Assembly (NCBI GenBank): GCA_032718475.1
Contig: JAUCBJ010000711.1
Location: forward strand, 1-50,119
Source: Nemertoderma westbladi
Lineage: Eukaryota > Animalia > Xenacoelomorpha
Direction: 5' to 3'
DNA: 50,119 bases
The position numbers were made by a program, and so were the translations under genes. Numbering within the stretch: the first letter of the stretch is position 1; the number at the start of each line of letters is the position of its first letter. Positions 2,993 to 22,581 of this stretch are shown one piece after another. Under the pieces are notes generated by a model that saw only the letters and a list, made by a program, of their open reading frames with translations, made no database searches and had not been told where the DNA came from.

Positions 2993-3000
2993 TTTACCAG

Positions 3001-6000
3001 GGGTGTGTGCAGGGCCGTTGGGTGGATGACTGAACACATTATAATAGGGGGAGGGGGTGTGTGCAGGGCCGTTGGGTGGATGACTGAACACATTATAATA
3101 GGGGGAGGGGGTGTGTGCAGGGCCGTTAGGTGGATGGCTGAACACATTATAATACGGAGAGGGGGTGTGTGCAGGGCCGTTGGGTGGATGGCTGAACACA
3201 TTATAATACGGGGAGGGGGTGTGTGCAGGGCCGTTGGGTGGATGGCTGAACACATTATAATACGGGGAGGGGGTGTGTGCAGGGCCGTTGGGTGGATGGC
3301 TGAACACATTATAATACGGAGAGGGGGTGTGTGCAGGGCCGTTGGGTGGATGGCTGAACACATTATAATACGGGGAGGGGGTGTGTGCAGGGCCGTTGGG
3401 TGGATGGCTGAACACATTATAATACGGGGAGGGGGTGTGTGCAGGGCCGTTGGGTGGATGGCTGAACACATTATAATACGGGGAGGGGGTGTGTGCAGGG
3501 CCGTTGGGTGGATGGCTGAACACATTATAATACGGGGAGGGGGTGTGTGCAGGGCCGTTGGGTGGATGGCTGAACACATTATAATACGGGGAGGGGGTGT
3601 GTGCAGGGCCGTTGGGTGGATGGCTGAACACATTATAATACGGGGAGGGGGTGTGTGCAGGGCCGTTGGGTGGATGGCTGAACACATTATAATACGGGGA
3701 GGGGGTGTGTGCAGGGCCGTTGGGTGGATGGCTGAACACATTATAATACGGGGAGGGGGTGTGTGCAGGGCCGTTGGGTGGATGGCTGAACACATTATAA
3801 TACGGGGAGGGGGTGTGTGCAGGGCCGTTGGGTGGATGGCTGAACACATTATAATACGGGGAGGGGGTGTGTGCAGGGCCGTTGGGTGGATGGCTGAACA
3901 CATTATAATACGGGGAGGGGGTGTGTGCAGGGCCGTTGGGTGGATGGCTGAACACATTATAATAAGGGGAGGGGGTGTGTGCAGGGCCGTTGGGTGGATG
4001 GCTGAACACATTATAATACGGGGAGGGGGTGTGTGCAGGGCCGTTGGGTGGATGACTGAACACATTATAATACGGGGAGGGGGTGTGTGCAGGGCCGTTG
4101 GGTGGATGGCTGAACACATTATAATAGGGGGAGGGGTGTGTGCAGGGCCGTTGGGTGGATGGCTGAACACATTATAATACGGGGAGGGGGTGTGTGCAGG
4201 GCCGTTGGGTGGATGGCTGAACACATTATAATAGGGGGAGGGGGTGTATGCAGGGCCGTTGGGTGGATGGCTGAACACATTATAATACGGGGAGGGGGTG
4301 TGTGCAGGGCCGTTGGGTGGATGGCTGAACACATTATAATACGGGGAGGGGGTGTGTGCAGGGCCGTTGGGTGGATGGCTGAACACATTATAATAGGGGG
4401 AGGGGGTGTGTGCAGGGCCGTTGGGTGGATGGCTGAACACATTATAATACGGGGAGGGGGTGTGTGCAGGGCCGTTGGGTGGATGGCTGAACACATTATA
4501 ATACGGGGAGGGGGTGTGTGCAGGGCCGTTGGGTGGATGGCTGAACACATTATAATACGGGGAGGGGGTGTGTGCAGGGCCGTTGGGTGGATGGCTGAAC
4601 ACATTATAATAGGGGGAGGGGGTGTGTGCAGGGCCGTTGGGTGGATGGCTGAACACATTATAATACGGGGAGGGGGTGTGTGCAGGGCCGTTGGGTGGAT
4701 GGCTGAACACATTATAATACGGGGAGGGGGTGTGTGCAGGGCCGTTGGGTGGATGGCTGAACACATTATAATACGGGGAGGGGGTGTGTGCAGGGCCGTT
4801 GGGTGGATGGCTGAACACATTATAATACGGGGAGGGGGTGTGTGCAGGGCCATTGGGTGGATGGCTGAACACATTATAATAAGGGGAGGGGGTGTGTGCA
4901 GGGCCGTTGGGTGGATGGCTGAACACATTATAATAAGGGGAGGGGGTGTGTACACTGTACAGGGCCGTTGGGTGGATGGCTGAACACATTATAATAAGGG
5001 GACGGGGTGTGTACAGGGCCGTTGGGTGGATGGCTGAACACATTATAATAAGGGGAGGGGGTGTGTGCAGGGCCATTGGGTGGATGGCTGAACACATTAT
5101 AATAAGGGGAGGGGGTGTGTGCAGGGCCGTTGGGTGGATGGCTGAACACATTATAATACGGGGAGGGGGTGTGTGCAGGGCCGTTAGGTGGATGGCTGAA
5201 CACATTATAATACGGGGAGGGGGTGTGTGCAGGGCCGTTGGGTGGATGGCTGAACACATTATAATACGGGGAGGGGGTGTGTGCAGGGCCATTGGGTGGA
5301 TGGCTGAACACATTATAATACGGGGAGGGGGTGTGTACAGGGCCGTTAGGTGGATGGCTGAACACATTATAATACGGGGAGGGGGTGTGTGCAGGGCCGT
5401 TGGGTGGATGGCTGAACACATTATAATACGGGGAGGGGGTGTGTGCAGGGCCGTTGGGTGGATGGCTGGAACACATTATAATACGGGGAGGGGGTGTGTG
5501 CAGGGCCGTTAGGTGGATGGCTGAACACATTATAATACGGGGAGGGGGTGTGTGCAGGGCCGTTGGGTGGATGGCTGAACACATTATAATACGGGGAGGG
5601 GGTGTGTCCTGGGCCGTTAGGTGGATGGCTGAACACATTATAATACGGGGAGGGGGTGTGTGCTGTGCAGGGCCGTTGGGTGGATGGCTGAACACATTAT
5701 AATACGGGGAGGGGGTGTGTGCCGGGCCGTTGGGTGGATGGCTGAACACATTATAATACGGGGAGGGGGTGTGTGCAGGGCCGTTGGGTGGATGGCTGAA
5801 CACATTATAATACGGGGAGGGGGTGTGTGCAGGGCCGTTGGGTGGATGGCTGAACACATTATAATACGGGGAGGGGGTGTGTGCAGGGCCGTTGGGTGGA
5901 TGGCTGAACACATTATAATACGGGGAGGGGGTGTGTGCAGGGCCGTTGGGTGGATGGCTGAACACATTATAATACGGGGAGGGGGTGTGTGCAGGGCCGT

Positions 6001-8313
6001 TGGGTGGATGGCTGAACTCATTATAATACGGGGAGGGGGTGTGTGCAGGGCCGTTGGGTGGATGGCTGAACACATTATAATACGGGGAGGGGGTGTGTGC
6101 AGGGCCGTTGGGTGGATGGCTGAACTCATTATAATACGGGGAGGGGGTGTGTGCAGGGCCGTTGGGTGGATGGCTGAACACATTATAATACGGGGAGGGG
6201 GTGTGTGCAGGGCCGTTGGGTGGATGGCTGAACACATTATAATACGGGGAGGGTGTGTGTGCAGGGCCGTTGGGTGGATGGCTGAACACATTATAATACG
6301 GGGAGGGGGTGTGTGCAGGGCCGTTGGGTGGATGGCTGAACACATTATAATACGGGGAGGGGGTGTGTGCAGGGCCGTTGGGTGGATGGCTGAACACATT
6401 ATAATACGAGGAGGGGGTGTGTGCAGGGCCGTTGGGTGGATGGCTGAACACATTATAATACGGGGAGGGGGTGTGTGCAGGGCCGTTGGGTGGATGGCTG
6501 AACACATTATAATACGGGGAGGGGGTGTGTGCAGGGCCGTTGGGTGGATGGCTGAACACATTATAATACGGGGAGGGTGTGTGTGCAGGGCCGTTGGGTG
6601 GATGGCTGAACACATTATAATACGAGGAGGGGGTGTGTGCAGGGCCGTTGGGTGGATGGCTGAACTCATTATAATACGGGGAGGGGGTGTGTGCAGGGCC
6701 GTTGGGTGGATGGCTGAACACATTATAATACGGGGAGGGGGTGTGTGCAGGGCCGTTGGGTGGATGGCTGAACACATTATAATACGGGGAGGGGGTGTGT
6801 GCAGGGCCGTTGGGTGGATGGCTGAACACATTATAATACGGGGAGGGGGTGTGTGCAGGGCCGTTGGGTGGATGGCTGAACACATTATAATACGGGGAGG
6901 GGGTGTGTGCAGGGCCGTTGGGTGGATGGCTGAACACATTATAATACGGGGAGGGGGTGTGTGCAGGGCCGTTGGGTGGATGGCTGAACTCATTATAATA
7001 CGGGGAGGGGGTGTGTGCAGGGCCGTTGGGTGGATGGCTGAACACATTATAATACGGGGAGGGGGTGTGTGCAGGGCCGTTGGGTGGATGGCTGAACTCA
7101 TTATAATACGGGGAGGGGGTGTGTGCAGGGCCGTTGGGTGGATGGCTGAACACATTATAATACGGGGAGGGGGTGTGTGCAGGGCCGTTGGGTGGATGGC
7201 TGAACACATTATAATACGGGGAGGGGGTGTGTGCAGGGCCGTTGGGTGGATGGCTGGAACACATTATAATACGGGGAGGGGGTGTGTGCTGTGCAGGGCC
7301 GTTGGGTGGATGGCTGAACACATTATAATACGGGGAGGGGGTGTGTGCAGGGCCGTTGGGTGGATGGCTGAACACATTATAATACGGGGAGGGGGTGTGT
7401 GCAGGGCCGTTGGGTGGATGGCTGAACACATTATAATACGGGGAGGGGGTGTGTGCAGGGCCGTTGGGTGGATGGCTGAACACATTATAATACGGGGAGG
7501 GGGTGTGTGCAGGGCCGTTGGGTGGATGGCTGAACACATTATAATACGGGGAGGGGGTGTGTGCAGGGCCGTTGGGTGGATGGCTGAACACATTATAATA
7601 CGAGGAGGGGGTGTGTGCAGGGCCGTTGGGTGGATGGCTGAACACATTATAATACGGGGAGGGGGTGTGTGCAGGGCCGTTGGGTGGATGGCTGGAACAC
7701 ATTATAATACGGGGAGGGGGTGTGTGCTGTGCAGGGCCGTTGGGTGGATGGCTGAACACATTATAATACGGGGAGGGGGTGTGTGCAGGGCCGTTGGGTG
7801 GATGGCTGAACACATTATAATACGGGGAGGGGGTGTGTGCAGGGCCGTTGGGTGGATGGCTGAACACATTATAATACGGGGAGGGGGTGTGTGCAGGGCC
7901 GTTGGGTGGATGGCTGAACACATTATAATACGGGGAGGGGGTGTGTGCAGGGCCGTTGGGTGGATGGCTGAACACATTATAATACGGGGAGGGGGTGTGT
8001 GCAGGGCCGTTGGGTGGATGGCTGAACACATTATAATACGGGGAGGGGGTGTGTGCAGGGCCGTTGGGTGGATGGCTGAACACATTATAATACGAGGAGG
8101 GGGTGTGTGCAGGGCCGTTGGGTGGATGGCTGAACTCATTATAATACGGAGAGGGGGTGTGTGCAGGGCCGTTGGGTGGATGGCTGGAACACATTATAAT
8201 ACGGGGAGGGGGTGTGTGCTGTGCAGGGCCGTTGGGTGGATGGCTGAACACATTATAATACGGGGAGGGGGTGTGTGCAGGGCCGTTGGGTGGATGGCTG
8301 GAACACATTATAA
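3001..8313. repeat. 54-bp tandem satellite/minisatellite, about 98 copies, G-rich on the plus strand
   Basis: Unit GGGTGTGTGCAGGGCCGTTGGGTGGATGGCTGAACACATTATAATACGGGGAGG repeats almost perfectly; it produces the 18-aa periodic pseudo-ORFs in the track. Confidence 0.99.
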
Positions 8314-8487
8314 TTTTTTTTTTTTAAAAAAAAAAAACCCGGACGAGCCGGTATAATGTAGGACAATCGTTAGTTCACCGGTAGGCCTATAGATGAAAAA
8401 GCACAGTAAATAATCACATGAAATATTAGGTGTCCAAACGTTTCTATTAAAGCAATAATACAAATGTAGCCACTTCGCTAGATTTCC

Positions 8488-11400
8488 TTATTTATTATAA
8501 ATTCCAAAGTAGTCAAGTATGCGCTGGTGCTTTATATCAAATGCTGTGTTCGGTAGCTGATAACAACTCTTAATGAAGGCTGCGTGTAGCTTATCTGATA
8601 ATCTACTGGGACACATCTTCAATCGTGAAAAAATATTCCCTTTATTGTATTTATAATTGATAATAGAAGTGAGTGTAGGAAGTCCATGACATGCGGCACC
8701 TAAACGATATGTGCTGCCCAGACCGCAGTAACGAGACGGAGAAGATCCGGAGCTGTGCGCAGGCCCTCCCAAAGAGTTATTATATTGCAAAGTGAGCCGG
8801 AGAGAGCTCTGGATCAAGGAGCTAGGGCTTTGTAGACCCCTGAACAGTGTTCCGGTGCAATGACTTAAAGCCATTACCGACAAATCGGGAGCCTCATACA
8901 AATTAGAGATAATGCCATCTGAGGCATAATTTCCAACATGAAGAAGACTACGTAGGATCTTCCTATGGTATGCATCTACAGCATTGATATCCGATTTATT
9001 CAGTGCCCCAAAATTATAACAATTCCTGTATAGTATTGATGGTATTGCAAGAGATTTCCAGAGCTTAGCAATGCACCCAACATCGTATCGTTGAGAGGTC
9101 CATCTTTGATTGTGGAAGATTTCTGAGTGAGTTGCTATCGACTTGATGATTTCAGCCTTGTGACTACGATTTTGCCCTATTTTGAAACCTAGAAAAGAGA
9201 TATGTTCTGAGGCATTTGTTAGATGTCCATTGATGGAGAGCTTGTCAGTTATTAATGACGACTTGCCAGAGGAAAAGGCAGTCCAATTTGTCTTAGAATT
9301 GTCAATCTTTAGATTTAGTCGTCCAAGTGAAAAAACTATTTCACTGGCCATCTTTTCCATTGCAGAAGTAGAGGTACTGATCATGATAAAGTCATCCGCA
9401 TAGGAGAAGGCACCTAAGGGAAGTCCATGAATCGTGCAGCCACTGTTATTTTCTTGCACTCTGTTAAAAACTTCCTTCAGATAGAAATTAAACAATGTTG
9501 GGGATAATAGCGACCCCTGTTTCAGTCCCACATACAGCTTTATTCCCTCTGAAGATATGAGATTACCGATACGAACATAGGCACACGTACTAGAGTAATA
9601 TATGAGCAGCAACCTTGCTATATAAGGATTTATTTCCGTTTCCTCCAGCAACTTAGTGATTAGCAGTGGTATATCAACAGAGTCGAAGGCCGCTGCAACG
9701 TCCATCTGTGTAACATACACATTCGATCCCCCAGCAACATAATATTGTATAATCTCCAGAATAGAAGCAATCGCCATGTCAGAACCAATTCCCTTGCGGT
9801 ATGCACACTGTGCTTCAGCTGGCACAATAATTTTTGAAAGGTGTTCCGTGATGATAATTTGTTCCATGAGTTTTCCCAATATAGAAATTGAGGATATTGG
9901 GCGATATGAGCTAGCCATCTGTGTGTCTTTCCCTTTTCCTTTATACAGGTAACTAATTAATGTCTCTCCCAGAGCGCTTGGTAGAGTCCCCAGCTCGACC
10001 GAGAGATTCAAAATATTGGTGACATGAAAACAAATTTCGTCAACATCAGAATACAGGAAGTTTTCAATTGTGAGGCTGTTTCTGTCAGGAGATTTGTTTC
10101 TCCTTAAGGCCAATACAGCATTACGTATCATTCGGGTAGAAAAGCAAGGAATATGCGACTTAGATTGATCGCATGTATCATTCAGCACTTTGTTCAAACC
10201 ACTGATTTTATCCTCGTAATCTGGGGACTGCTGACCTTGAGTAGATTTCAAGTGTTTCTCGAACATACCTAAGTGTTCACCATTGTTGTTAGTCGCAGTG
10301 CTATCAGTTCTGAGATGCCGGATATGTTTCCAGAATGCGTGTGGGTCTGCCTGGTTGGTCCTGGAAGAAGGAATAATATGTGAGATCTTTTTCTTAGAAA
10401 GAAAATTACAAAGACGGCGGGTCGATCTTTTTGATTCTTTAAATGCATGTTTTAGTGGATCATCCTCGTTCTTTCCACCATGGCACCATAAATCGTAAAG
10501 TCTCTTTGTAGTTTGAACTCTATCACACAACTTTTTACTTCGAATTCTGTAGTTACGAGTTCGTTTTCTTGGCTTTAAAATGCATATAGACATACATGCA
10601 CTATCATAGAGCAACTTTTGAAGATCTTTGGCATAATTTTCCAGTGATGTAGGATTGTGATGAAAATTTTTCTTGCTAAACTGTTTATTGAGAACCTCTA
10701 AGCCATCTGTTACAAGTTGTTTGTAGTGGTCTAGCTGTGTTGAAGATGCCCTTGACCAGTTGAAACGTTTTGGCCCAGGAAAGCAATTCTGAGAAGGTGC
10801 TTTGTTGCGATGAAAATGGGAAGAAGAGTTTATGAAACAAGATATAGGAGTATGGTCCGATAAATTATCAGTCTCGTTCATAGGATGACAAATTCCATAT
10901 GTGATCAGTGCCTCGCCTGTTATGTTACTGATAATGTGGTCAATGTAAGACCGTGAGTTGTTGTAGCCATAGAAGGTGTGTAAGGGCCCAGTGAACTTCA
11001 ATGTGGTATCAACTGCTAGAAGATCATTATCTACAAGAAAGCTGTTTAATAGGCGGCCAGATTTTGTTGCTGATTTACGACTTGCACGAGGGCCTTGAAG
11101 AGAACCAACATCTGCATTACTATCACATAGGATAAAAGGGATTGCATCGGAATGTAGTGCTAAGACTGCTTCAAGGCGGCCAAGGAAATCTGAGAACAGC
11201 TCCTGTGGCTTGTTTTGGTCAGGACCATATGCGCAAAGAAAAAGAAAAACATCCCCGGAACTAGTAGCCCCCTTTATTCCAATGATATCATCTTTTGAAG
11301 TTACTTTAGTTAGGTTAGTGAGTAGATCATTCCTGATGAAAATAGCAACACCCCCCTTACTTCGACCAGGCCCTGCGCTATGAGTAGCAGGTAGGTACTC

Positions 11401-11553
11401 ACAGTAATGAAATTTTGATAATCCTATTAGAAATTCTTTACACATTAATTTGTCCATCCAATGCTCCTGTATACAGATGACATCATGCTTCATCAATAGG
11501 TTTTTGACATTTTCTTGATTGGGAATGAAGCCATGGACATTAAGTGTAACCAT
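8488..11553 (-). CDS. LINE ORF2: apurinic-like endonuclease plus reverse transcriptase (1021 aa from the first ATG)
   Basis: APE motifs TLNVHG, ICIQEHW, KGGVAIF, LCDSNAD, YIDHI, LSDHTPI. RT motifs SYRPIS, QCAYRKG, MDVAAAFDSV, GLKQGSLLSPTLFNFY, YADD, FLG. No C-terminal CCHC knuckle is evident. Confidence 0.97.
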   Translation of the reverse strand: MVTLNVHGFIPNQENVKNLLMKHDVICIQEHWMDKLMCKEFLIGLSKFHYCEYLPATHSAGPGRSKGGVAIFIRNDLLTNLTKVTSKDDIIGIKGATSSGDVFLFLCAYGPDQNKPQELFSDFLGRLEAVLALHSDAIPFILCDSNADVGSLQGPRASRKSATKSGRLLNSFLVDNDLLAVDTTLKFTGPLHTFYGYNNSRSYIDHIISNITGEALITYGICHPMNETDNLSDHTPISCFINSSSHFHRNKAPSQNCFPGPKRFNWSRASSTQLDHYKQLVTDGLEVLNKQFSKKNFHHNPTSLENYAKDLQKLLYDSACMSICILKPRKRTRNYRIRSKKLCDRVQTTKRLYDLWCHGGKNEDDPLKHAFKESKRSTRRLCNFLSKKKISHIIPSSRTNQADPHAFWKHIRHLRTDSTATNNNGEHLGMFEKHLKSTQGQQSPDYEDKISGLNKVLNDTCDQSKSHIPCFSTRMIRNAVLALRRNKSPDRNSLTIENFLYSDVDEICFHVTNILNLSVELGTLPSALGETLISYLYKGKGKDTQMASSYRPISSISILGKLMEQIIITEHLSKIIVPAEAQCAYRKGIGSDMAIASILEIIQYYVAGGSNVYVTQMDVAAAFDSVDIPLLITKLLEETEINPYIARLLLIYYSSTCAYVRIGNLISSEGIKLYVGLKQGSLLSPTLFNFYLKEVFNRVQENNSGCTIHGLPLGAFSYADDFIMISTSTSAMEKMASEIVFSLGRLNLKIDNSKTNWTAFSSGKSSLITDKLSINGHLTNASEHISFLGFKIGQNRSHKAEIIKSIATHSEIFHNQRWTSQRYDVGCIAKLWKSLAIPSILYRNCYNFGALNKSDINAVDAYHRKILRSLLHVGNYASDGIISNLYEAPDLSVMALSHCTGTLFRGLQSPSSLIQSSLRLTLQYNNSLGGPAHSSGSSPSRYCGLGSTYRLGAACHGLPTLTSIINYKYNKGNIFSRLKMCPSRLSDKLHAAFIKSCYQLPNTAFDIKHQRILDYFGIYNK

Positions 11554-11644
11554 ACTGATGGAATTTCTTGATTCTGAGTTAGATAAAGGGATGGGATTGG
11601 TAGACTCAGCTGGAAATCCTATATGATTTGTCCCACTTTCAATG

Positions 11645-14600
11645 TTAAAAACGGCACGGTCTTACTCCCCTACCCGCTCTGGTATTTAGATATCCTTCAT
11701 GCGTCATACTATGACTAGTATTAGAGTTATGCATACTACTGGATGGACGGACTTCAGCACTGAGCTTATACTGTGGGGTTTGATAAATATCTGAACGGTT
11801 CTTCCATAGTGTACATTTTATTCCTACAGGCCAGAAATCATCCCCCATTAGCTTTAGAGCAAATCTGCCATCAAGGATAATTTTCATGTTCTTTACTCCT
11901 CTATAAATTCGCGTAGTAATTCTATGTAAGCTGATATGATGTGACCTGAGGTAGTTGACGATATCTTCTTCAGACAGTGCCTTCTCTATACCATTGACAA
12001 ATAAAGTAACATAATTGATTCTATCACTGGGCATCAAATCGCATCTGAAATCGATTGCAAGCTTACTATGGACATTAGAAGTAGAGTCATTTCTGTGATG
12101 GTTTGCATGGTTGACTATGGGCTTTTTCACAAAAGCGTTCTTCCTATGTTGTCGCAAATGTTGACCTTTGGGAAAAGTAGATATATTATCGTTGCGGGTT
12201 ACAAAGTCAGATTTCTGATTTTGCTTCACAACAAAGGGTCTGTTATCTTTGGAAGGAATGGTTTGCTGATAAAAACACTGATCCATCGTTTCTGTAGATG
12301 TATCATCATTAAGAGGGGAGAACCTGTTATACAGTTGTGATTTGTCCTTACCAGTCATGTTCTCCAGTGGAGCTCTATAGGAAGTGAGATTGCACAACCT
12401 TGAGGGATGTGGAGCCAGTTTTGTATTCCAAGGTACATCATCGGGTATGTTTGTAGTTACTGCGGGAGTGGGAATGCATTTGTTACTCACATCATTTACG
12501 GGATCCTCAGAAATTTGAATGCTTGACTTATTTATGTCAAGGCCCTCATACATATTCACACTTAAATCACCTGCGTCATCCACAGTGATGTAAGAATCTG
12601 ATTCATCATTTTCTGTTGGTAATTCAAGGCCACAGTTTTGATCCAGTGAAGATACGAGGGGATTTTTAGAGGATAAGATAGAGTCCAGCTGGTACTGTAT
12701 GCCTAATCTAGTTCGCCTTTCATGATGCATTTCTTCATTAAGGTTGTGAAGTTCCTGCTTCAGTAGATCATGGCTGTGCTCCATCTTACTAAGCCGACTC
12801 TGCAGGACAACTATGGTGTTTAGAAAGTCACGTTTCATTTGCTCAAATGACATGTCTCCTTGATCAGGATGTTCTTGTGTGCGTTTTAGCCGCTTCTTAC
12901 ATGACTCCGTGAATGTTTTCTCTTCAAGACAGCGATGCAATTCAAAGATGTCTATCGCCATTTCATTTGCCGACGCTCTATTACGACACCCTAGGGAAGC
13001 ACAGTTTACAGGAGACATCAGTTTACGAGTTTTTTCTAAAAGTAGATCCCGCAGTAGCTGTCTTTTTTCCATTGAGAGCATTGAAATGAGCCTGATAGCC
13101 TCTTTTCGCGGGTTTTGCATCATTTGGTGGAGAAACGCACCGTCAGATATGTCTATCATTTCCTGATTCCCTTGTTGTCCATTTAGTGCTATAAAGTTTG
13201 AAGGGAGTAGTTGATTATAGATCTGAGTATCATGTACAAGTTTGAACTGATCGATACAATCATAGAGCCATTTGCGGCACTTCAAGCTATCTGTAAGGTA
13301 AGACAGAGCACTGAAGTTGCCATGCGCTGTTGCAAGTGCAAAGAAACAGACATATACACCACAGTCATAGGTGTTTGTTTGCTTTGGGATTGGTTGAGGA
13401 CAGACAGTGACGTGCCATTTGCTGTTAGATATGCTCGAGGTTTCTCTGTTGCGTCCATTAGGGAGAAGGCGGTCAATTTCATCCAAAACTTTTACAATTT
13501 CACACGTAGTTCTAGATGGCATAATGTTGTCAGATTTCAAAGAGGAAAAGCGATATACTTCTTTAGTAATAGAATTGGCTATGTGAATGACAAAGTGGTG
13601 GTTTATACATTCAGGAAAGAACAGCCACTCTGGTGGAGATGATTTGTTGGATCCAAGGTACCGTTTGGCGATATATTTTACAGCACATAACGTATCATAC
13701 TCTTTATTCTGCAGAAGTGTGGTGAGCTGGATGGGAACAGATGTGCAGTGACTGACATTCGTTTCAACTAGCCCCAGGAAGCAGTCTAAAACAGCATCAT
13801 TAAGCCATGCAGCAGGCTGCAGGCATTTTAGATCATCTGGGGTAGGAATAATTCGCGGCAGAGGAATGTTTGAAGCCCCTATATTAGAAAGGTAAACAGA
13901 AATCTCAGTAGCTGACTCACCCTTAAATTTCTCTGCAGGCATTTTTATTTTTGTGGGCGTAATTTCACTAACAGGGCCCTGTGCAATATTGTTAGTATGG
14001 ATTTTAGAGATATTTACACAATCATTATCTATAGTTGGTCTAAAAAAGTCCGTAACTTTCCTACATTGTATATTGCATAGAGTTACATTGTCCTCCAAGT
14101 CCTTACTGATTTCGGATCCTTTCACAGTCATGGATTCCGCGAGTCCCCCTGGGGGTTCTCTGGGTCCCCCCATGGTCGTCCCGGGTTTGCTGGATCCCAC
14201 TGTGTTTATCCCGGATTTGACTGGTCTGCGTGGGGCTGACCCGGGTTCGCTGGGTCCCCCCATGGTCATCCTGGGTTCCCCTGATCCCCCTGTGGAGTAT
14301 GTTGGCTTCGGTTTGGACGCGGCGCTGCATCCCGACTCGTCTCCAGTCGCCATGGAGACAATAGACTTCGTAGTATTGTCTATTGGTTTCGATTGGGACG
14401 CACTGCTGCGTTCCGACTCGTCTCCAGTCGCCATGGAGACAATAGACTTTGTAGTATTGTTTTTTGGTATCAGCCGGGACGCATCGCTGTGTTCCGACTC
14501 GTATCCAGTCGCCATGGAGACAATAGACTTCGTAGTAGAGTCTGTTGGCTTCAGTTGGGACACACCGCTGCGTTCCGGATCGTCTCCAGTCGCCATGGAG

Positions 14601-15757
14601 ACAATATACTTCGTAGTAGAGTTTGTTGGAGTCGATTTGGACGCACCGCTGCTTTTCGACTCGTCCCCAGTTGCCATGGAGACAACAGACTTCGTAGTAG
14701 CCTCTGTTGGTTTCGGTTGGGACGCACCGCTGCGTTTCGACTCGTCTCCAGTCGCCATGGAGACAATAGACTTCGTAGTAATAGAGTCTGTTTGTTTCGG
14801 TTTGGAAGCACCGCTGCGTTCCGACTCGTCTCCAGTCGCTGTGGAGACAATAGACTTCGTAGTAGAGTCTGTTGGAAACGGTTCGGACGCATTGCTGTGT
14901 TTCGACTCATCTCTAGTTGCCATGGAGACAGTAGACTTCGTAGTAGTAGAGTCTGTTGGTTTCGGTTGGGACGCACAGCTGCGTTCCGACTCGTCTCCAG
15001 TCGCCATGGAGACAATATACTTCGTAGAAAAGTCTGTTGGAATCGGTTTCGACGCACCGCTGCGTTTCGACTCGTCTCCAGTCGCCATGGAGACAATAGA
15101 CTTCGTAGTAATGGAGTCTGTTGGTTTCGGTTGGGACGCACCGCTGCGTTCCGACTCGTCTCCAGTCGGCATGGAGACAATAGACTTCGTAGTAGAGTCT
15201 GTTGGAAACGGTTCGGACGCATTGCTGCGTTTCGACTCGTCTCCAGTTGCCATGGAGACAGTAGACTTTGTAGTAGAGTCTGTTTGCTTCGGGTGGTACG
15301 CACCGCTGCGTTTTGACTCGTCTCCAGTTGACATGGAGACAGAAGACTTCGTAGTATTGTCTGTTGGTTTCGGTTGGGACGAACCGTTGCATTCCGACTT
15401 GTCTCCAGTCGCCATGGAAACAATGGACTTCGTAGTAGAGTCTGTTGGAAACGGTTGCGACGCACCACTGCGTTTCGACTCGTCTCCAATCGCCCCAGTG
15501 GGAAACTCTACAGAGACCGCTATTTGAGACACACTCACCGTTTCTCCCGCCATCCTGGCAGATGGCTCCGTAGAACCAGCTTGTAGTTTGGTGTGTACGG
15601 ATGTGTTTTGTTCGGAGTTTATGCTCATCTCGACCTTCGGAATATTCTTACATCTTCCTTGTTTCTTCGGTAAACAACTGGTACATACCAGGCCTCGGTG
15701 AAAGCAAACGCAGTTGGAACACGATCCTGCTCGGTTACACTTGCAACAGGGTGCCAT
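11645..15757 (-). CDS. LINE ORF1 (1370 aa): CXC-like Cys cluster, 27/28-aa Ser/Thr repeats, Ulp1/C48-like peptidase, coiled coil, RRM-like domain
   Basis: First ATG at 15757 in GTA-ATG-G context (the track start at 15796 is TTG). N-terminal CCKC..SCSNCVC..CTSC..CKN. Peptidase motifs WLNDAVLDCFL / NHHF / PKQTNTYDCGVYVC. Heptad-rich IVVLQSRLSKMEHSHDLLKQELHNLNEE. C-terminal TLFVNGIEKALSEEDIVNYL...FWPVGIKC, typical of CR1/L2/RTEX-type ORF1s. Confidence 0.92.
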   Translation of the reverse strand: MAPCCKCNRAGSCSNCVCFHRGLVCTSCLPKKQGRCKNIPKVEMSINSEQNTSVHTKLQAGSTEPSARMAGETVSVSQIAVSVEFPTGAIGDESKRSGASQPFPTDSTTKSIVSMATGDKSECNGSSQPKPTDNTTKSSVSMSTGDESKRSGAYHPKQTDSTTKSTVSMATGDESKRSNASEPFPTDSTTKSIVSMPTGDESERSGASQPKPTDSITTKSIVSMATGDESKRSGASKPIPTDFSTKYIVSMATGDESERSCASQPKPTDSTTTKSTVSMATRDESKHSNASEPFPTDSTTKSIVSTATGDESERSGASKPKQTDSITTKSIVSMATGDESKRSGASQPKPTEATTKSVVSMATGDESKSSGASKSTPTNSTTKYIVSMATGDDPERSGVSQLKPTDSTTKSIVSMATGYESEHSDASRLIPKNNTTKSIVSMATGDESERSSASQSKPIDNTTKSIVSMATGDESGCSAASKPKPTYSTGGSGEPRMTMGGPSEPGSAPRRPVKSGINTVGSSKPGTTMGGPREPPGGLAESMTVKGSEISKDLEDNVTLCNIQCRKVTDFFRPTIDNDCVNISKIHTNNIAQGPVSEITPTKIKMPAEKFKGESATEISVYLSNIGASNIPLPRIIPTPDDLKCLQPAAWLNDAVLDCFLGLVETNVSHCTSVPIQLTTLLQNKEYDTLCAVKYIAKRYLGSNKSSPPEWLFFPECINHHFVIHIANSITKEVYRFSSLKSDNIMPSRTTCEIVKVLDEIDRLLPNGRNRETSSISNSKWHVTVCPQPIPKQTNTYDCGVYVCFFALATAHGNFSALSYLTDSLKCRKWLYDCIDQFKLVHDTQIYNQLLPSNFIALNGQQGNQEMIDISDGAFLHQMMQNPRKEAIRLISMLSMEKRQLLRDLLLEKTRKLMSPVNCASLGCRNRASANEMAIDIFELHRCLEEKTFTESCKKRLKRTQEHPDQGDMSFEQMKRDFLNTIVVLQSRLSKMEHSHDLLKQELHNLNEEMHHERRTRLGIQYQLDSILSSKNPLVSSLDQNCGLELPTENDESDSYITVDDAGDLSVNMYEGLDINKSSIQISEDPVNDVSNKCIPTPAVTTNIPDDVPWNTKLAPHPSRLCNLTSYRAPLENMTGKDKSQLYNRFSPLNDDTSTETMDQCFYQQTIPSKDNRPFVVKQNQKSDFVTRNDNISTFPKGQHLRQHRKNAFVKKPIVNHANHHRNDSTSNVHSKLAIDFRCDLMPSDRINYVTLFVNGIEKALSEEDIVNYLRSHHISLHRITTRIYRGVKNMKIILDGRFALKLMGDDFWPVGIKCTLWKNRSDIYQTPQYKLSAEVRPSSSMHNSNTSHSMTHEGYLNTRAGRGVRPCRF
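13250..13840 (-). other. Ulp1/SENP-like (peptidase C48) domain within ORF1
   Basis: DDLKCLQPAAWLNDAVLD, then FFPECINHHFVI (His codon 13595-13597), YRFSSL, and PKQTNTYDCG (Cys codon 13361-13363). Order and spacing match the C48 motifs. Confidence 0.85.
14290..15495 (-). repeat. Coding tandem repeat inside ORF1, 81/84-bp unit, about 15 copies
   Basis: Protein unit ATGDES(K/E)RSGASQPKPTDS(T)TKSIVSM. DNA period is 81 (CTCCAGTCGCCATGGAGAC at 14341 and 14422); length variants are +3 nt. Confidence 0.97.
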
Positions 15758-15830
15758 TACATTCGATTTAAACGAATTTCGAGATAGCGGCGCCAAGCAG
15801 TCTGGCAGTCGTTGCCGATATATCTTATAG

Positions 15831-16012
15831 TATTAGGCCTATGTCAGTCTATATATATGTCAGTATAGACTACAATGAAATGTGTACAAGTTTGGTTCCA
15901 TTTTCTCAAAATTGACAGACTTATTAGCGTTCCAACATTTTCGACAACGACAACGACGACGACATACGTTTCCTCTAATTATGATATCCCTACGCTACGG
16001 CTGCCCTGGACT
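15831..16012 (-). mobile_element. 5' part of a non-autonomous Helentron/HINE (pearl-like) element
   Basis: Reading minus: CCAGGG terminus, a (GTC/GTT)n microsatellite (15942-15963), then GCTAATAAGTCTGTC (13/15 identical to GCTAATAACTTTGTC at 26601-26615) and AAACTTGTA. Same order of parts as the element at 26445. Confidence 0.55.
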
Positions 16013-16487
16013 TACGTGACCCCACAGTACCGGTATTGATTAGTTTAATTCTGTAATTAGTTATACTTTGGGACGTCACTCTAGTCACCTGCGTGTTTCT
16101 GATAGGTTAATAATTGTAGCCGTTCTACTTCATTTAATGTCAATTTTCTCGCGGAATTCATTCAGTCAATTATTGTGGACTCCAGAGACCTTGTGCGATA
16201 CCGGCAGTATGAATGGCTGCGTGACTGTGACAAACTTCTGCAAAACTGAAAGTATATGACTGCAGGACATGTACCGGTAGCGATTCTGTGTCTATATTCC
16301 CTACAACGTAAGAAGCTGTCTAGAGGTAAGACTGTAGGTAACGTACCGGTAATCAGTACCGGAAGGCGAGTTATCTAGTTTAATATTAATAGTCATCACT
16401 CATCATACTGCCATGTCGAATATACCGGTACGAATTATTTTTTCGATTTCTGTATGATTTTGTCGCCATGCGCAAAATTTTAGTGGC

Positions 16488-16499
16488 TGCGCATGCGCA
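16488..16499. promoter_or_regulatory. NRF1/EWG-type palindromic site, candidate promoter element
   Basis: Perfect TGCGCATGCGCA palindrome, with a further half-site CATGCGCA near 16467-16474, about 130-140 bp upstream of the candidate first coding exon. Confidence 0.45.
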
Positions 16500-16631
16500 A
16501 CTTTCTAGTCAATTTTGAGCGACAACCCTGCCTATGTAATGTAAAACCTTTATAATTCATTATACTGGTCGATTATTAGTTTAACCTCTTATATCATTCT
16601 TCTATAATCAATATCGTTTTGAAAGAAATTA

Positions 16632-16665
16632 ATGTACGCAATGGCTGATAAATTCTACTACAGAG
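16632..16665 (+). CDS. Candidate first coding exon (MYAMADKFYYR, phase 1) of a Pro/His-rich host gene
   Basis: In-frame ATGs at 16632 and 16641 and a consensus donor GAG|GTAAGT at 16665/16666. The phase-1 end matches the phase-1 start of the exon at 18549. Confidence 0.5.
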
Positions 16666-17114
16666 GTAAGTTGCGATACATTTTTTCTGCACAGTACACA
16701 GTAAAGGAGGGGGGGGGGGGGGGGGGGGGGGGGTTGCCAATCAAATACTTCTGTGCTCATAGTCAAAGTTCGGTTGTCGGTTGAAAACACAGAGGTGCTT
16801 CTTTTTAGCTTTTTTACACGGTGAGCAAGTGTCTAAAAAACGAATTTCCTTTTATTTTTTCTTGTTGTTAACTTTATCTCCAACATAACCGCCTAACATT
16901 TTTAACAGTTCACACAATTTTATTGATAGTGCTGCTCTGCACTAGTCTAAGCAAGTAGCGTACTGTAATGCCTTCCTGGATAAGCCACACTGCTTTGCCC
17001 ATTCACAACCTTTCACAAAGTGTGATTTTTGTAGTTGATTAAGCAAATTTAGTAGATATAAATTTTTCAGAAACATCCCGTGTATCCATTATTAAATTTG
17101 CTTATTATTTATTA

Positions 17115-17406
17115 TAGCCCCCCCCCCCCCCCCCCCCCCACACGGAGCAACTTATTTCTCCAAGTTGTTTTTGAAACTTGCTGCTGGACCCCCTCACACA
17201 GAGAAACAAGTTGCTGCAACTTGTTTCTGCTTGTGAGGGAGTCCAGCAACAAGTTGCGAAGTTATATTCCCAGCAACGTTTTTAAAAACTTTTATTACAT
17301 CCCATTTTTACTAGCTAATTTTCGATAATTTCTGTGTGTGAGGGGGTCCAGCAACAAGTTTCAAAAACAAGTTGCAGAAACAATTTGCTCCGTGTGAGGG
17401 GAGCCA
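17115..17406. mobile_element. MITE with long terminal inverted repeats (possibly PIF/Harbinger-like), intronic
   Basis: Left CACACGGAGCAACTTATTTCTCCAAGTTGTTTTTGAAACTTGCTGCTGGACCCCCTCACACAGAGAAA matches the reverse complement of 17328-17397 with few mismatches. TA flanks both sides, the left end carries an expanded C22 tract, and there is an internal palindrome at ~17201-17229. Superfamily is uncertain. Confidence 0.85.
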
Positions 17407-18548
17407 TAGTTATAGCAATGAAATTATTAATTATTATTAATTCGTTACCCTAAAACAGACAACTAATTATTAAAAAACTATCTTCTAAAAAATACTAGCT
17501 ATAGCCCTATAATATAAGAAATAATAGTTAGCCTCGCCTCAATCTTTCAGAACGATAACTACATTCAAAAACACTCATAAAATTCCTCGAAAAATTATTA
17601 CATTAAAAAATCACAGCTATATAAAATATGATTTGTTAAGTCTCAACATGCATTGTATCAATTTTTATAAGACACTAAATAATGAACCGTTGAAATTTTT
17701 AATAAATATGGGGGGGGGGGGGGGTGGTAATGCCACGTTATGTGCATAACTGGCTTCAAATAATATTAAAAAATTCCGAGGTAACGTGTGCACAGTGCAT
17801 ATTACATTGAGTTACTCATGGTTACATTAATTCGAAGTTTGAGTCATAGTTGGGGCCTAATTATATTCAAATATACGTCACATTTAATGTTTTATTGTTC
17901 TCAGGGAGGACACAGGTTATATTTTATGTGGACCCTTTTTGATTTTACCAAAATATTGAGGAGCGAGCCGTGAAGTTAGCGAGCTCCGCGTGCAGGTATA
18001 TACTACTATTCCAACAATAATATTTCTGTGTATTTATTTATATGTCTAATATTTCAGTGTTTATTTCTTAGTAACTCTCAGCTTTCTTTAACGGAAACTT
18101 CTTTTATGAAAAAAAGTTTATAAAGTTTACATAGGTAGACTTATTACGACCTGTATCGTACGTTACTAGATGGCCAATATATTTGAGTTAGTGTTCGAAT
18201 TCGTTGGAGCTCACAATTGTTATATAATTACCGGTATGTACTTGAGCTGACACTTGACAGATATTGACTAAGACCTTTTGACTGAGTCTTTCTGAGGGCT
18301 TGTTGTTCCCAGTGTAGTTCTCATGTCTGCTACTGAAGGCGAACTTCATCAAGGGAGAACTACACATTGTTTATATTTTTAATCTTAAAGAAATTTCTAT
18401 ATTTAAGTTTACATAAATTTATCTCACGTGCTTATGTTGTCCCCCAATCTGTGTCATGTATTTGTGGTATGCTTGTTACACAGTACAGAGTACATTATAT
18501 ATTAAGTTTATTTTCCATAAATTATTGAGTCGCTTTTGCTTTATTTAG

Positions 18549-18787
18549 CGGCCTACCCTGCATACCTTCCAGTGGTACCTCAACCCCACCATCACTACCA
18601 CCACCCCGTACCACCCCACCACCCCCCACACGCCGCCGTTCTTCCTATGATGTACGTACCCATGGTGGGGGTACCAGCGGTTCCATTCCACCCAGCTATG
18701 GCGCCCCACTTTCCTCCCCCTCCATACGAACACCCCCGCGGGCCAGCTTCCTTCCATCCACACCACAACCTGTCCCATCATTCCCCG
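18549..18787 (+). CDS. Internal exon of a Pro/His-rich protein with a PPxY motif
   Basis: Acceptor ttttgctttatttAG|, donor CCG|GTAAGT, and a GC-rich island in AT-rich DNA. Translation AYPAYLPVVPQPHHHYHHP...FPPPPYEHP...HHSP, phase 1 to phase 0. Confidence 0.8.
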
Positions 18788-21229
18788 GTAAGTGTTTAAG
18801 ATAAATAATCGTAGTGTTAGAAAATTCGACATAAAGTAACTTAAATATTGTGACTTATAGTATTATATATAGTACTTATAGATACAAATTTTAAATATTG
18901 TGTCTGTGTATATACTATGTGTATATATATACGATAATACGCTAGCGAGATTAATTGCCAATAGGTAATATAGGAAATTGCTACCGCATAGCCAGGTGTA
19001 AAATATCATTCATGTCATACTTATCTTACAATACGGTAATAAACAGCTCTTAAATTTCCATTATCCTGTCCATGCGATTCGCTTCTCATTGTATTGCACT
19101 ATTGCAACCTCTCATCATTGATGGAGACAGACAAACTAACAGCAATCGCACATAATTTATTTGTTTGATAGTCAGTCACCAGCATTTACAGTTGATAAAT
19201 GGCATTGTCAGCGAATCGATTTTTTCGCTTTATTTCTGCTTGTAGACACAATGTTGGCATTCATCTTAGCTTTAACACGTGTCCGTTCCTCACAGTGCCT
19301 CGCCTCCAATAATAACTAATTAGCATCCCAATGCGTACGATTTCTTTCTTGTATCAACTGATTGCAGCTTGTTTGAAACAGCTGTCCTACAGCATGTTGC
19401 ATCATCCATCATTTAGCTGCACAGATTGCGCGGTGGTAATTTTAATTAATCGCCGCTCTCAAACCTATTGTAAATTTCAAGATGTTGGTTTCCCTTGTCA
19501 CGATGGGGGGAGGGGGGGGGGGGGGGGAATAAACTTTATAATTCTTACTCTCTTAGTATTTGAAACCGCTTAAAAATAGCAAATTATGTCTTTAAATGCG
19601 AACGAGTATAATATTACATACAGTTCGTTGGCGCAAATTGATCCAAATGAAATAAATTTAAAATTTCGTTTGTTGTTTTGGTTAGAAAACGCCGCCTTGG
19701 TAACATGCTCCTTTCCCTTGTTTTCAATTTTGTAAACGCATAGTTGGTGTTTGTGGTCATTTAGAAAATTCTCTAACATTTTCAGGGCTTTTGGGGTCAC
19801 TGAGTTCAATGCTAGCAACGCAACAAACATCCCCATTAGTATATCGGCATTCCAAAATACACATTTTAGTAAGCACATCGAATATTGGGATCTCTAACGC
19901 ACATGTGAATAATTAGTACCAGGTTTTTACTTTTCAGTCGAATCGAAATTTTATTGAATTTTTATATTGGAATAATTTTTTTAAAATTTATCCTTTATTT
20001 GTGTTTTGGAATTCTTATTATCTTATAAGCTGTAGAGGATACTAATTCGTTTATAGTTTTGGTTAGTTTTAGCCCTTTTGTAGCAGCTTTGTGTTTTTAG
20101 TGAAAACGTGGTATTCTTCACATTAGGGTAACTGCAAAATGAAATATAACATCAGAAACTCTGGTGTACTTCACATGTGCCAGGGCAAATGGCTTTCAAT
20201 TTGAAATTGTATTTACATTTTTAACGTAGCCTTGCTGTTTCCACGGGATGTAATAAAAATACAAACAAAAAAGAACAAATCAAAAACTCTTGAAAGGAAA
20301 ACTCGTTAAAACAGATAATATTGAGATGCCGCACGATTATTACATTCAAGAAGATTTAATGTGTCTAACAGACGCCCAGACCAGTGGGGTATAGTTTTAC
20401 ATTTACTTTCTCTTCGCACCTTCAATGTTGTTGCTGATTTTTATGATTCCAGAAGGAGAAAAGCAGTTAGAATTACCCCGACGTAATCCATTTAATTGGT
20501 TTCTCGCAATCGTAATCTTTGATGATACGTAATCCACGTCAGTAATTTATTAATGCCCAATTATTCACATTGATACAAGTGTAGTAGTGCAAGTACAGTG
20601 AGTTTCATCATACCGCCCCGCCGCAAGCATTATGGTCAGCATCATGTGACTGGTAATGTTTGTTTGCTTTCTACGTATTAGGGTGCCCTGGAAAACCGCA
20701 GATGTTCTTGAATTATAATGACATCACAATACTTTGTACGTTCACTACCCTTACTGCAGTGTGTGCATGTATAATAATGTAACTGGCAGATCTCCGCTCT
20801 GTACACCGAAGTTGGATCGATGTATCATAATGGAGTCATTACAATGATGACATATGCTGTTTTTAGAACACAATGTTCTTTGAAGGACTGTTATGTTATA
20901 AAAATGTTATAAAAATGGTGTTATTGGCTCGAGTTTCTTATATGAAGCCGAATAGAACAATACAATGAAATTGACCAGATATCAAGGTGAACCGTATTCC
21001 AATCCATCGCGCCCCTGGTATAGAGTGTGGCCATTCTTCAGATTAGTTTCAATATCATAATATGTTTATATCGAATTAGAAAGCATTATAGGCGACGGGT
21101 TGTTGGACTATCTACACATTTTCAACTTGTATTCCAGAAAATATCACATTGATTTATTATTGGGTTTCAGTAGGGTGTTTTTATTTAATTTAATTTCATG
21201 TAATCTTACAATTTCCTTTCTATAAATCC

Positions 21230-22190
21230 TTTTCGATTTCAGAATATACCACTTGTATTGTATTTCAATAATTACGTTTGATTTACAATATGTGCCATAT
21301 TTATTCATTCAGAAATTACATTTCGATTTCAGAATGCATTGTTTATTTTTCAGAATTACATTCATATTTCAGATAAGAAAATAAGAATTTTGAAATATAT
21401 ATATCATATTTATTTTAGGAGATTAAATTTCGATTTCAGTAAATTCAAAATAGATTTCAGAAACGACCAATTCGGTTTTATAACGTTTTCTAAATATTCC
21501 ATTTTAATTTTACAATACAATATTCGATTTCAGATTTTCCATACAAATTTCAGATGCATGGAGCCAATGCAGTACAAACAAACCGACAATATTAGCAACC
21601 ACCATCAAATATTGCGCTAATTATATTGAAATTCTGAAATCCAAATGCACTGTTTCTGAAACTCCAGTGCTCAAATGTAATATTTTCTGAAATGAAATTT
21701 AATTTATTCTATATAAGTTAATATTCTGCTTATTTTATTCTTATAATTCACACTTACAAAAATATTAAATTTACTGAAGACGTCCAAAATAATTAAATTG
21801 TCATATAGGCCCTATAAACATTAACAAATATGAAATTGAAGACGTATTAATTCATACATATGAATATTTTCAAATATAGCACAACTGAATTAATAACATT
21901 AACAAATATAATATGGGAATTATCCCAGAAGGTCCCTCAGTCCACCCCCCCCCCCCCCCCCCCCCTCCTCGCCGATGGTACCAAGGACGGAGGGCGCATT
22001 ACCCATCTAGATTGCGTCCAGCAACCTCTGCAGTAGAAAATTTCTATATAAGTAATTGAAAAATATTTTATTGAATTTATTTTATGTAAATTTAGCTTCG
22101 TTAATACACTTGGAAATTTGTGGATTTAATCTTCAAATTCAAATTCTATTGCATTTTCTGAAATCAAAGTAATGTTTTCTGAAATATGTG
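21230..22190. repeat. Degenerate foldback-like region of short ATTTCAGA/TCTGAAAT subrepeats
   Basis: About ten TTCAGA-type copies on plus at 21235-21555, then the inverse TTCTGAAA at 21632-21693 and 22156-22184. Confidence 0.45.
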
Positions 22191-22581
22191 GAAAAGGTGA
22201 AGTTTTGATACAAATGTCAAGCAATTCGATAAGGATTTATAAACAATTATGGTGTCATCAGAAAATGGCACTATATTACTGGTCAAGGTTTATAAAAATT
22301 GTCATAACGATTTTTCTGCATTTTGGTATAACTGCACAAGGTTATGAGAAAAATACGGTGTGAAACTTTGCTCTTGGATTCGGAAATTTGGGTTTGGAGT
22401 GTGAAAATTTATTGTGAAAAAAAAACCCTGCATACATCATATATAACTTCACAATACTTGATGTACAGGGACCATTCTCACCAAAATTGGCCAAATGGGT
22501 GTCCTGAAACCATAACTTCTGTTTAGGTTAGATTATCTGCAGCGACATTCATTTGATACCAACATAAACTTATTTTTACAG

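What the first reader, a model, noticed from the sequence alone, without database searches (positions are those of the whole stretch)
13250..13840. APE-type LINE whose ORF1 carries a Ulp1/SENP (SUMO-protease-like) domain
Seen: an uninterrupted 1370-aa ORF1 with WLND, the HF/HW-position His, and QxNxxDCG motifs between a Ser/Thr repeat tract and the usual coiled coil plus RRM-like region. Established: these motifs define peptidase C48 (Ulp1/SENP). Such domains are known in some DNA transposons (Mutator-like, Zisupton) and in restriction-like-endonuclease LINEs such as NeSL. ORF1 extras of APE LINEs are usually PHD, esterase or zinc knuckles, and SUMOylation is part of transposon silencing in animals. 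Inference: this could be an undescribed LINE lineage carrying a deSUMOylase/deubiquitinase-like counter-defence or self-processing module in its high-copy RNP protein. Novelty cannot be confirmed without a search.
Basis: partly seen in the sequence, partly recalled or inferred. Interest (0 to 1): 0.88.

Follow-up and report, generated by a model that had tools for sequence, protein, structure and literature searches.

The report
LINE ORF1 with remodelled SUMO-protease domain
An unbroken jumping gene in what is likely an animal genome carries, inside its presumed RNA-packaging protein, a domain related to the enzymes that strip SUMO tags from proteins but with one of the three catalytic residues changed, so it likely grips the host's SUMO-type tags and cuts them slowly at best, which would help the element evade silencing.

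Summary
A minus-strand, two-ORF, APE+RT non-LTR retrotransposon (about 8314-15890) has an open 1370-aa ORF1. Residues about 630-850 pass the Pfam Peptidase_C48 cut-off, match yeast Ulp1 by sequence, and model as a SENP fold. The domain is integral to ORF1, and contigs from two studies show no listed change in it. His721, Gln793, Cys799 and the WLND motif are kept. The triad Asp is Ser738 (0 of 54 relatives have Ser; two base changes from Asp), and the Trp after the His is Phe. So it is a C48 homologue, not a textbook deSUMOylase. My best reading is a selected SUMO/Ubl-engaging module, weakly active or a trap, used against host silencing (40%). Recent decay (25%) and self-processing (17%) are real rivals. 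Ulp1 domains are already known in Ginger1, Mutator and the RLE elements NeSL/Utopia. Ten literature searches found none in an APE-LINE ORF1, but Repbase could not be checked. I found no sibling family in another species, could not compute dN/dS, and could not assign the RT clade. Verdict: new variant of a known kind, moderate interest.

The parts
11645..15757 (-). ORF1, 1370 aa, uninterrupted
   Evidence: openness control
15644..15757 (-). N-terminal Cys-rich motif (9 Cys in aa 4-36), likely zinc-binding; resemblance to CXC domains is recalled only
   Evidence: read from the sequence; no meaningful Pfam or PDB match
14295..15494 (-). 81-bp (27-aa) Ser/Thr-rich tandem repeat, 14.7 copies, 82% matches
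14123..14306 (-). Gly/Pro-rich linker (aa 484-545) holding all four Gly-Gly dipeptides of ORF1
   Evidence: clustering not significant, p=0.21 against local shuffles
13201..13870 (-). Ulp1/SENP (peptidase C48)-like domain, aa 630-852: W651-L-N-D654, H721, F722 (for Trp), S738 (for Asp), Q793, C799
13544..13546 (-). Ser738 codon TCC at the catalytic-Asp position
   Evidence: no other letter listed here in contigs of X1, X2, X3
12668..12853 (-). predicted coiled coil, aa about 969-1030
   Evidence: heptad count; weak Pfam GAS E 0.0064, below cut-off
11723..12070 (-). C-terminal RRM-like region ending in FWP motif (inferred RNA-binding)
8488..11553 (-). ORF2, 1021 aa: APE endonuclease (aa 2-234) and reverse transcriptase (aa 544-792, YADD at 718)
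8314..8337 (-). 3' end: T12 then A12 (poly(A)-like tail) after a roughly 150-nt 3' UTR, abutting a 54-bp satellite
15758..15890 (-). short 5' UTR; 5' boundary inferred at about 15864-15893, where contigs branch and a high-depth repeat begins
   Evidence: tables 2, 7, 8; no target-site duplication of 9 bp or more found

Best explanation
This is an unbroken APE-type LINE whose ORF1 protein contains an in-frame Ulp1/SENP-related domain with Cys, His and Gln kept and the triad Asp replaced by Ser, and the domain likely binds SUMO-type tags on host proteins and removes them slowly or merely shields them, which would weaken SUMO-dependent silencing of the element. Shown: the architecture, the homology, the residue states, and their presence in contigs of two studies. 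Inferred: (1) ORF1p multimerises by its coiled coil and coats the element's RNA by its RRM-like end, so it presents many copies of the domain; (2) the domain has been kept by selection; (3) its ligand is SUMO rather than another ubiquitin-like protein; (4) it works as a Cys-His dyad (Ser standing in weakly, as Asn does in some relatives) or as a substrate trap; (5) the benefit is escape from SUMO-dependent heterochromatin formation.
For: Overall identity to 47 aligned relatives is only 17-26%, yet the domain matches 17 of the 21 columns conserved in at least 80% of them. That pattern points to long selection on the active-site and substrate-entry motifs. D654 is equivalent to Ulp1 D451, which forms the salt bridge to SUMO needed for binding (PMC3216068, passages); the same paper shows that catalytically dead Ulp1 binds SUMO conjugates tightly. 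The model (pLDDT 86.3) ranks SUMO proteases (Z 23.6-20.8 for the SENP1/2/3/5 and yeast Ulp1 rows) above NEDD8 protease (18.5-17.6) and bacterial CE-clan enzymes (15.5 or less). Ser738 needs two base changes from an Asp codon and shows no variant in contigs of X1, X2, X3, so it is not a window error or a one-step hit. Both ORFs are open and the APE and RT motifs are present. SUMO is required for piRNA-guided transposon silencing in Drosophila (bioRxiv 10.1101/533091, abstract). In plants a Ulp1 domain is fused to the VANC anti-silencing protein of VANDAL transposons, with its function unknown (PMC13317346, passages). SUMO proteases with a Cys-His dyad exist in another family (Desi-1; PMC4281951).
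Against: The triad Asp is missing (0 of 54 relatives have Ser), the Trp after the His is Phe (53 of 54 have Trp, 1 Tyr), and a Phe conserved in 38 of 47 relatives is Gln677, in a gappy part of the alignment. I recall that Phe as a SUMO-contact residue. Four misses at 21 conserved columns puts the domain among the 3 of 47 most deviant relatives, as early decay would also give. The fold model used an alignment of C48 relatives, so its SENP ranking is partly circular; the single-sequence model failed (pLDDT 38.5). No related family with this architecture was found elsewhere, so there is no dN/dS. A joined form lacking 11978-13120 exists in X2 and X3 contigs, so broken derivatives of ORF1 persist. 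ORF1p of LINEs is mainly an RNP protein, and access to the element's own chromatin is assumed.
Confidence: 0.4

Rival explanations
1. Decaying passenger: the domain was once an active captured protease, has lost activity in this lineage, and is kept only because the ORF1 frame must stay open to reach the coiled coil and RRM.
For: Asp->Ser, Trp->Phe and Phe->Gln at conserved columns. Contig depth over the domain is only 2.2-3.9 times the flank. No relatives with the architecture were found.
Against: Cys, His, Gln, the N-x-x-D-C-G motif and WLND are all intact despite 17-26% overall identity. The domain has no large deletion (188 aligned residues at 2.0 A to SENP5). ORF2 is just as divergent from its nearest relatives (25% at best), so odd residues may reflect a fast-evolving lineage.
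Confidence: 0.25
2. Self-processing protease: the domain cuts ORF1p after a Gly-Gly in the linker just upstream, releasing the Cys-rich/repeat N-terminal part from the C48-coiled-coil-RRM part. Its pocket has drifted from SUMO specificity, as in viral CE-clan maturation proteases (recalled).
For: All 4 Gly-Gly dipeptides of ORF1 lie in aa 490-538, about 90-140 residues before the domain, and one reads Thr-Gly-Gly like the end of SUMO (SUMO end recalled). Cutting in cis would tolerate a weak catalytic centre and altered SUMO contacts.
Against: The linker is Gly-rich: 4 or more GG arise in 21% of local shuffles, and none elsewhere has p=0.08. Two of the four are followed by Pro, which I recall blocks Ulp1 cleavage. 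The SUMO salt-bridge Asp is kept.
Confidence: 0.17
3. Deubiquitinase or deneddylase that protects the element's own proteins from degradation, or tunes DNA repair at the insertion site.
For: CE-clan folds include ubiquitin- and NEDD8-specific enzymes (rows 24-26 and 31-49). Ginger1 transposases carry either Ulp1 or OTU domains, and a repair role was proposed (PMC2836005, passages).
Against: Sequence and fold hits rank SUMO proteases first, and WLND is of the SENP type.
Confidence: 0.13
4. Artefact or nested insertion: the domain comes from a mis-assembly or from a DNA transposon fragment that landed in frame in this one copy.
For: Ulp1 domains are common in DNA transposons. The locus lies among satellites, and no target-site duplication was found.
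Against: One X1 contig spans 12026-14361 with 0 differences, and X2 (another study) covers 13153-14361 with 0 differences. The frame is continuous. GC and GC3 of the domain (0.42/0.40) match the rest of ORF1 and ORF2 (0.39-0.42/0.35-0.42). No convincing inverted repeats bracket it among the 25 longest of 98 pairs shown.
Confidence: 0.04

Closest known systems
NeSL (nematodes) and Utopia-1_TSP non-LTR retrotransposons (PMC4640811, passages)
   Same: Non-LTR retrotransposon encoding a Ulp1-like cysteine protease domain upstream of the RT.
   Different: Those are RLE elements with the protease at the N-terminus of the single RT protein. This element has an APE endonuclease and two ORFs, and the domain sits in ORF1 ahead of a coiled coil and RRM-like end.
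Ginger1 and Mutator/KIU (VANC-Ulp1) DNA transposons (PMC2836005; PMC13317346; passages)
   Same: Transposon-borne PF02902 domain of unknown function; in KIU it is fused to an anti-silencing protein.
   Different: Cut-and-paste DNA elements with DDE transposases. No RT, no RNP protein.
Yeast Ulp1 and human SENP1/2/3/5 catalytic domains (PDB 1euv, 9gnn, 2g4d)
   Same: Sequence and predicted fold (Z 23.6, rmsd 2.0 A over 188 residues to 9gnn); WLND, His, Gln, Cys.
   Different: Triad Asp is Ser, the Trp after the His is Phe, about 20% identity, and the domain is embedded in a retrotransposon protein.
ORF1p types with accessory domains (PHD, esterase, CCHC) of APE LINEs (PMC4120745; PMC3905857; passages)
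   Same: Modular ORF1 with coiled coil and RRM-like region plus an add-on domain. The C-terminus matches a PHD-bearing ORF1-like protein.
   Different: The add-on is a protease-fold domain. The survey of 448 Jockey-group ORF1s has 0 occurrences of 'protease', 'peptidase' or 'ulp' in its main text. ORF1 here is unusually long, with a 27-aa repeat tract.

Membership tests
Peptidase C48 (PF02902) sequence family | Score above Pfam gathering cut-off | tested here: met
   27.9 and 32.6 bits against 20.7
Peptidase C48 (PF02902) sequence family | SENP/Ulp1 fold | tested here: met
   Model pLDDT 86.3; Foldseek E 4e-10; VIA Z 23.6, rmsd 2.0 A, 188 aligned. The model was built with a C48 alignment, so this is not independent of the sequence match.
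Canonical Ulp/SENP SUMO proteases (not filed as a member) | Cys-His-Asp catalytic triad | tested here: not met
   C799 and H721 present; Ser738 where 49 of 54 relatives have Asp and 5 Asn
Canonical Ulp/SENP SUMO proteases (not filed as a member) | Invariant oxyanion Gln | tested here: met
   Q793; Gln in 54 of 54 relatives
Canonical Ulp/SENP SUMO proteases (not filed as a member) | Trp residues forming the Gly-Gly tunnel | tested here: inconclusive
   W651 kept; second Trp is Phe722 (aromatic; 53 of 54 relatives Trp, 1 Tyr)
Canonical Ulp/SENP SUMO proteases (not filed as a member) | SUMO salt-bridge Asp (Ulp1 D451) | tested here: met
   D654 in WLND
Canonical Ulp/SENP SUMO proteases (not filed as a member) | Cleaves SUMO precursors or conjugates | not testable with these tools
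   needs a bench assay
APE-type non-LTR retrotransposon (LINE) | ORF2 with N-terminal APE and RT | tested here: met
   PF03372 E 4.9e-9, PF00078 E 2.1e-25; best PDB hit human L1 ORF2p E 1.4e-19
APE-type non-LTR retrotransposon (LINE) | 3' poly(A) or simple-repeat tail, no LTRs | tested here: met
   T12A12 at 8337-8314; self-BLAST of 8301-22900 shows no terminal repeat
APE-type non-LTR retrotransposon (LINE) | Target-site duplication | tested here: inconclusive
   No shared word of 9 bp or more between 8200-8345 and 15758-16600; ends lie in repeats
APE-type non-LTR retrotransposon (LINE) | Dispersed, 5'-truncated copies | tested here: inconclusive
   Contig depth is higher over most of ORF2 than ORF1 in X1, X2, X3, which fits, but the tool warns that depth is no copy number; no genome held
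NeSL/Utopia (RLE group) | Single protein with C-terminal restriction-like endonuclease | tested here: not met
   Two ORFs, N-terminal APE, no Pfam family above E 0.32 in the last 230 aa of ORF2
RTE group (RTEX/Proto2) | RT phylogeny with named reference elements | not testable with these tools
   No labelled references available. An 11-row tree of unnamed RTs puts it with P0058 (95/92, both long branches) and P0057 (82/86). The RTEX/Proto2 likeness is recalled from motifs only.
Ginger1/Mutator DNA transposons | DDE transposase and terminal inverted repeats | tested here: not met
   No such Pfam hit in either ORF; no convincing inverted repeats

The most novel reading that the evidence does not exclude
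An undescribed lineage of APE LINEs has turned its multimeric RNA-coat protein into a counter-defence weapon: a SUMO-protease-fold domain with a naturally remodelled Cys-His-Ser centre that traps or strips SUMO on the host silencing machinery. It would be the first animal LINE-encoded anti-silencing factor of this type and a natural non-canonical C48 active site.
Probability: 0.22. Interest if true: 0.85.

Novelty: new variant of a known kind. Interest (0 to 1): 0.5.

Why it matters
Ulp1 domains have been captured repeatedly by unrelated transposons (Mutator, Ginger1, NeSL/Utopia), and the papers read here state or imply that their role is unknown. A copy inside a LINE ORF1p adds a new setting: the stoichiometric RNP protein rather than the integration enzyme. 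It also offers a clean test, because the domain is discrete, both ORFs are open, and LINE reporter assays are standard. If the domain engages SUMO, it links the known SUMO dependence of piRNA-guided silencing to a transposon-encoded countermeasure in animals. The Ser at the triad position would show how far a C48 active site can drift, or mark a move from enzyme to SUMO-binding module.

Tried and rejected
No host genome is held, so copies could not be counted by tblastn. Relatives with the same architecture: word-indexed searches with ORF1 aa 620-900 (852 candidates) and aa 900-1370 among shorter proteins (2718 candidates) gave none. HMMER against 1.84 billion proteins gave only generic C48 proteins at 23-38% identity over the domain (one at 56% over 34 residues) plus one ORF1-like C-terminal match. 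Locus scans gave one distant RT fragment (L001) and nothing in viral or prokaryotic contigs. The ESM Atlas gave no usable hit for aa 600-1370 and only unnamed eukaryote clusters for aa 1225-1335. These collections hold few animal transposon proteins, so absence is weak evidence. dN/dS could not be computed: contigs of X1-X3 show no listed differences in the domain even at 80% likeness. No RNA holder was listed; this says nothing about expression. X4 holds only small parts, which is no proof of absence. The single-sequence fold failed. No complex with SUMO was predicted, so binding is open; a pass would largely have reflected likeness to solved SENP-SUMO structures. Gly-Gly clustering was not significant. 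The N-terminal Cys motif and the RRM-like region had no meaningful Pfam or PDB hit. No Rfam family in 1-28500. The 465-aa antisense ORF over the repeat (14130-15527) was rejected as a by-product of the 81-bp repeat. For clade assignment, the supplement of PMC11203168 (searched; parts 1 and 63 of 65 read) has no clade-labelled sequences, and Kapitonov 2009 (PMC2829327) is not held.

Full report
Anatomy. The window holds one long retrotransposon on the minus strand. ORF1 runs 15757->11645 (1370 aa) and ORF2 11553->8488 (1021 aa), 91 bases apart. ORF2 carries an APE endonuclease (PF03372, E 4.9e-9) and an RT (PF00078, E 2.1e-25); its best solved relative is human L1 ORF2p. The expected catalytic motifs can be located (QEH, YIDH, SDH, YADD). 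A roughly 150-nt 3' UTR ends in T12A12 at 8337-8314 and meets a 54-bp satellite. The 5' end is inferred near 15864-15893, where contigs branch and a very high-depth repeat begins. No target duplication of 9 bp or more was found. The host is probably an animal; this rests on the element types in the window and on unchecked notes about the same genome.

ORF1 reads, from the N-terminus: a 9-Cys motif (aa 4-36, no database support); a 27-aa Ser/Thr-rich repeat, 14.7 copies; a Gly/Pro linker; the domain in question (aa 630-852); a predicted coiled coil (13 of 17 hydrophobic a/d positions); and an RRM-like end. That end matches an unnamed PHD-bearing protein at 32% over 125 aa, but Pfam gives only E 0.16, so 'RRM' is inferred.

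The domain is a real C48 homologue. It passes the Pfam cut-off. All 19 of 19 PDB sequence hits at E<=1 are Ulp/SENP proteases, yeast Ulp1 first. 53 of 55 hits in the large HMMER search carry PF02902. With 47 of these 55 hits as alignment (I left out P0011, P0042 and six long multi-domain proteins), the model reached pLDDT 86.3. It matched SENP5 at Foldseek E 4e-10 and Z 23.6, 2.0 A over 188 residues. That fold result is not independent of the alignment, and without an alignment the prediction failed. The domain is integral: the frame is open far beyond chance (831 codons against at most 193 in 2000 shuffles), and its base composition matches the rest of the element. Contigs from two studies cover it with no differences in X1 and X2, and one unlisted difference in the X3 piece. 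X1 and X3 are one sample and may be the window's own source.

SENPs use a Cys-His-Asp triad, an invariant Gln and tunnel Trp residues (PMC4281951, passage). Here W651, D654, H721, Q793 and C799 are kept. The Asp position holds Ser738, where 54 relatives have Asp (49) or Asn (5). The Trp after the His is Phe (53 Trp, 1 Tyr). The Ser codon TCC is two changes from Asp and shows no variant in the contigs. Of 21 columns conserved in at least 80% of 47 relatives the domain matches 17; 3 of the 47 deviate as much or more. So motif retention against 17-26% background identity argues for long selection, while the four misses leave room for recent loss of catalysis. I therefore file it in the PF02902 sequence family but not as a canonical SUMO protease.

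Family. Contig depth over the domain is 82.2, 42.6 and 133.8 against 23.8, 10.9 and 62 in the flank (X1, X2, X3). It is higher over most of ORF2, where more variant letters and pieces under 90% identity occur. This fits a small, young family with 5'-truncated copies, but the tool warns that depth is not copy number. X2 and X3 also hold a joined form skipping 11978-13120, downstream of the domain. No sister family with this ORF1 was found in any collection. The nearest RTs are 25% identical at best and unnamed. In an 11-row tree the element groups with P0058 and P0057, away from the other rows, on long branches. Its motifs remind me of RTEX/Proto2 (recalled, untested).

Mechanism. I favour a SUMO-engaging module acting against host silencing (0.40). 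The SUMO salt-bridge Asp is kept, and an inactive Ulp1 domain is known to trap SUMO conjugates (PMC3216068, passages). SUMO is needed for piRNA-guided silencing in flies (bioRxiv 10.1101/533091, abstract). A plant transposon fuses Ulp1 to its anti-silencing protein (PMC13317346, passages). All steps from homology to function are inferred. Rivals are decay (0.25), self-processing at the Gly-Gly linker (0.17; clustering not significant), ubiquitin or NEDD8 specificity (0.13) and artefact (0.04).

Novelty. Ulp1 domains are documented in NeSL and Utopia-1_TSP, which are RLE elements (PMC4640811, passages), and in Ginger1 and Mutator (PMC2836005, passages). Ten full-text searches (listings, several for background) showed no APE LINE with a C48 domain in ORF1. 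Term look-ups for 'protease' gave 0 in PMC4120745, PMC5203782, PMC11203168, PMC13343379, PMC10294476 and PMC5753468. PMC3905857 and PMC7846101 were read as passages and added nothing on this. I read main-text passages only, and their supplements (unseen except for PMC11203168 and a search of PMC7846101) may list domains. Repbase, Repbase Reports and subscription reviews were not searchable, so an existing entry cannot be excluded. Among earlier notes of this scan the Ulp1-bearing LINE findings name NeSL/Utopia as closest; searches for an APE-LINE ORF1 case returned none.

Verdict. A real and apparently undescribed domain combination, in one small family of one organism, with an altered catalytic centre and no functional or comparative support yet. 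New variant of a known kind; interest 0.5.

Noticed in passing
window 3000-8314: 54-bp satellite, about 98 copies at 97% matches, strongly G-skewed, with long open frames on both strands; it begins directly at the LINE's poly(A)-like tail. Whether the LINE inserted at its edge or generated it is unknown.
   Followed up: partly
window 8314-8337: The 3' tail is a perfect T12A12 palindrome, preceded by a short CCGG..CCGG motif, so the RNA end could fold back on itself.
   Followed up: no
window 22907-49401: 32-bp AT-rich satellite of about 850 copies filling half the window.
   Followed up: no
window about 26440-27717 and 15887-16020: A 1.3-kb non-coding insert in the 32-bp satellite with a (GTC)n run, 145-bp internal repeats and short inverted ends. 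A similar, very high-depth repeat (531-2940 in the four runs against 11-62 nearby) flanks the LINE's 5' end, and its loose ends match the insert's start. It resembles non-autonomous Helentron/DINE-1-type elements (recalled).
   Followed up: partly
window 6-1293 (minus): Decayed remnant of another LINE RT (tblastn with P0060, E 7e-20), not matched by the focal ORF2.
   Followed up: partly
window 17134-17401: Inverted repeat with arms of about 73-81 bp at 86-90% identity, MITE-like.
   Followed up: no
window about 18549-18789 (plus): GC-rich Pro/His-coding stretch bounded by AG and GT, possibly a host exon (read).
   Followed up: no
window 11977/13121: Contigs of X2 and X3 hold a joined form that skips 1143 bases of ORF1 (coiled coil and start of the RRM-like region) with one extra letter; its depth does not add up with the neighbouring contigs.
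   Followed up: partly
window 14130-15527 (plus): 465-aa antisense open frame over the 81-bp repeat; contigs suggest that repeat number varies between copies (joint 15235->15549).
   Followed up: partly
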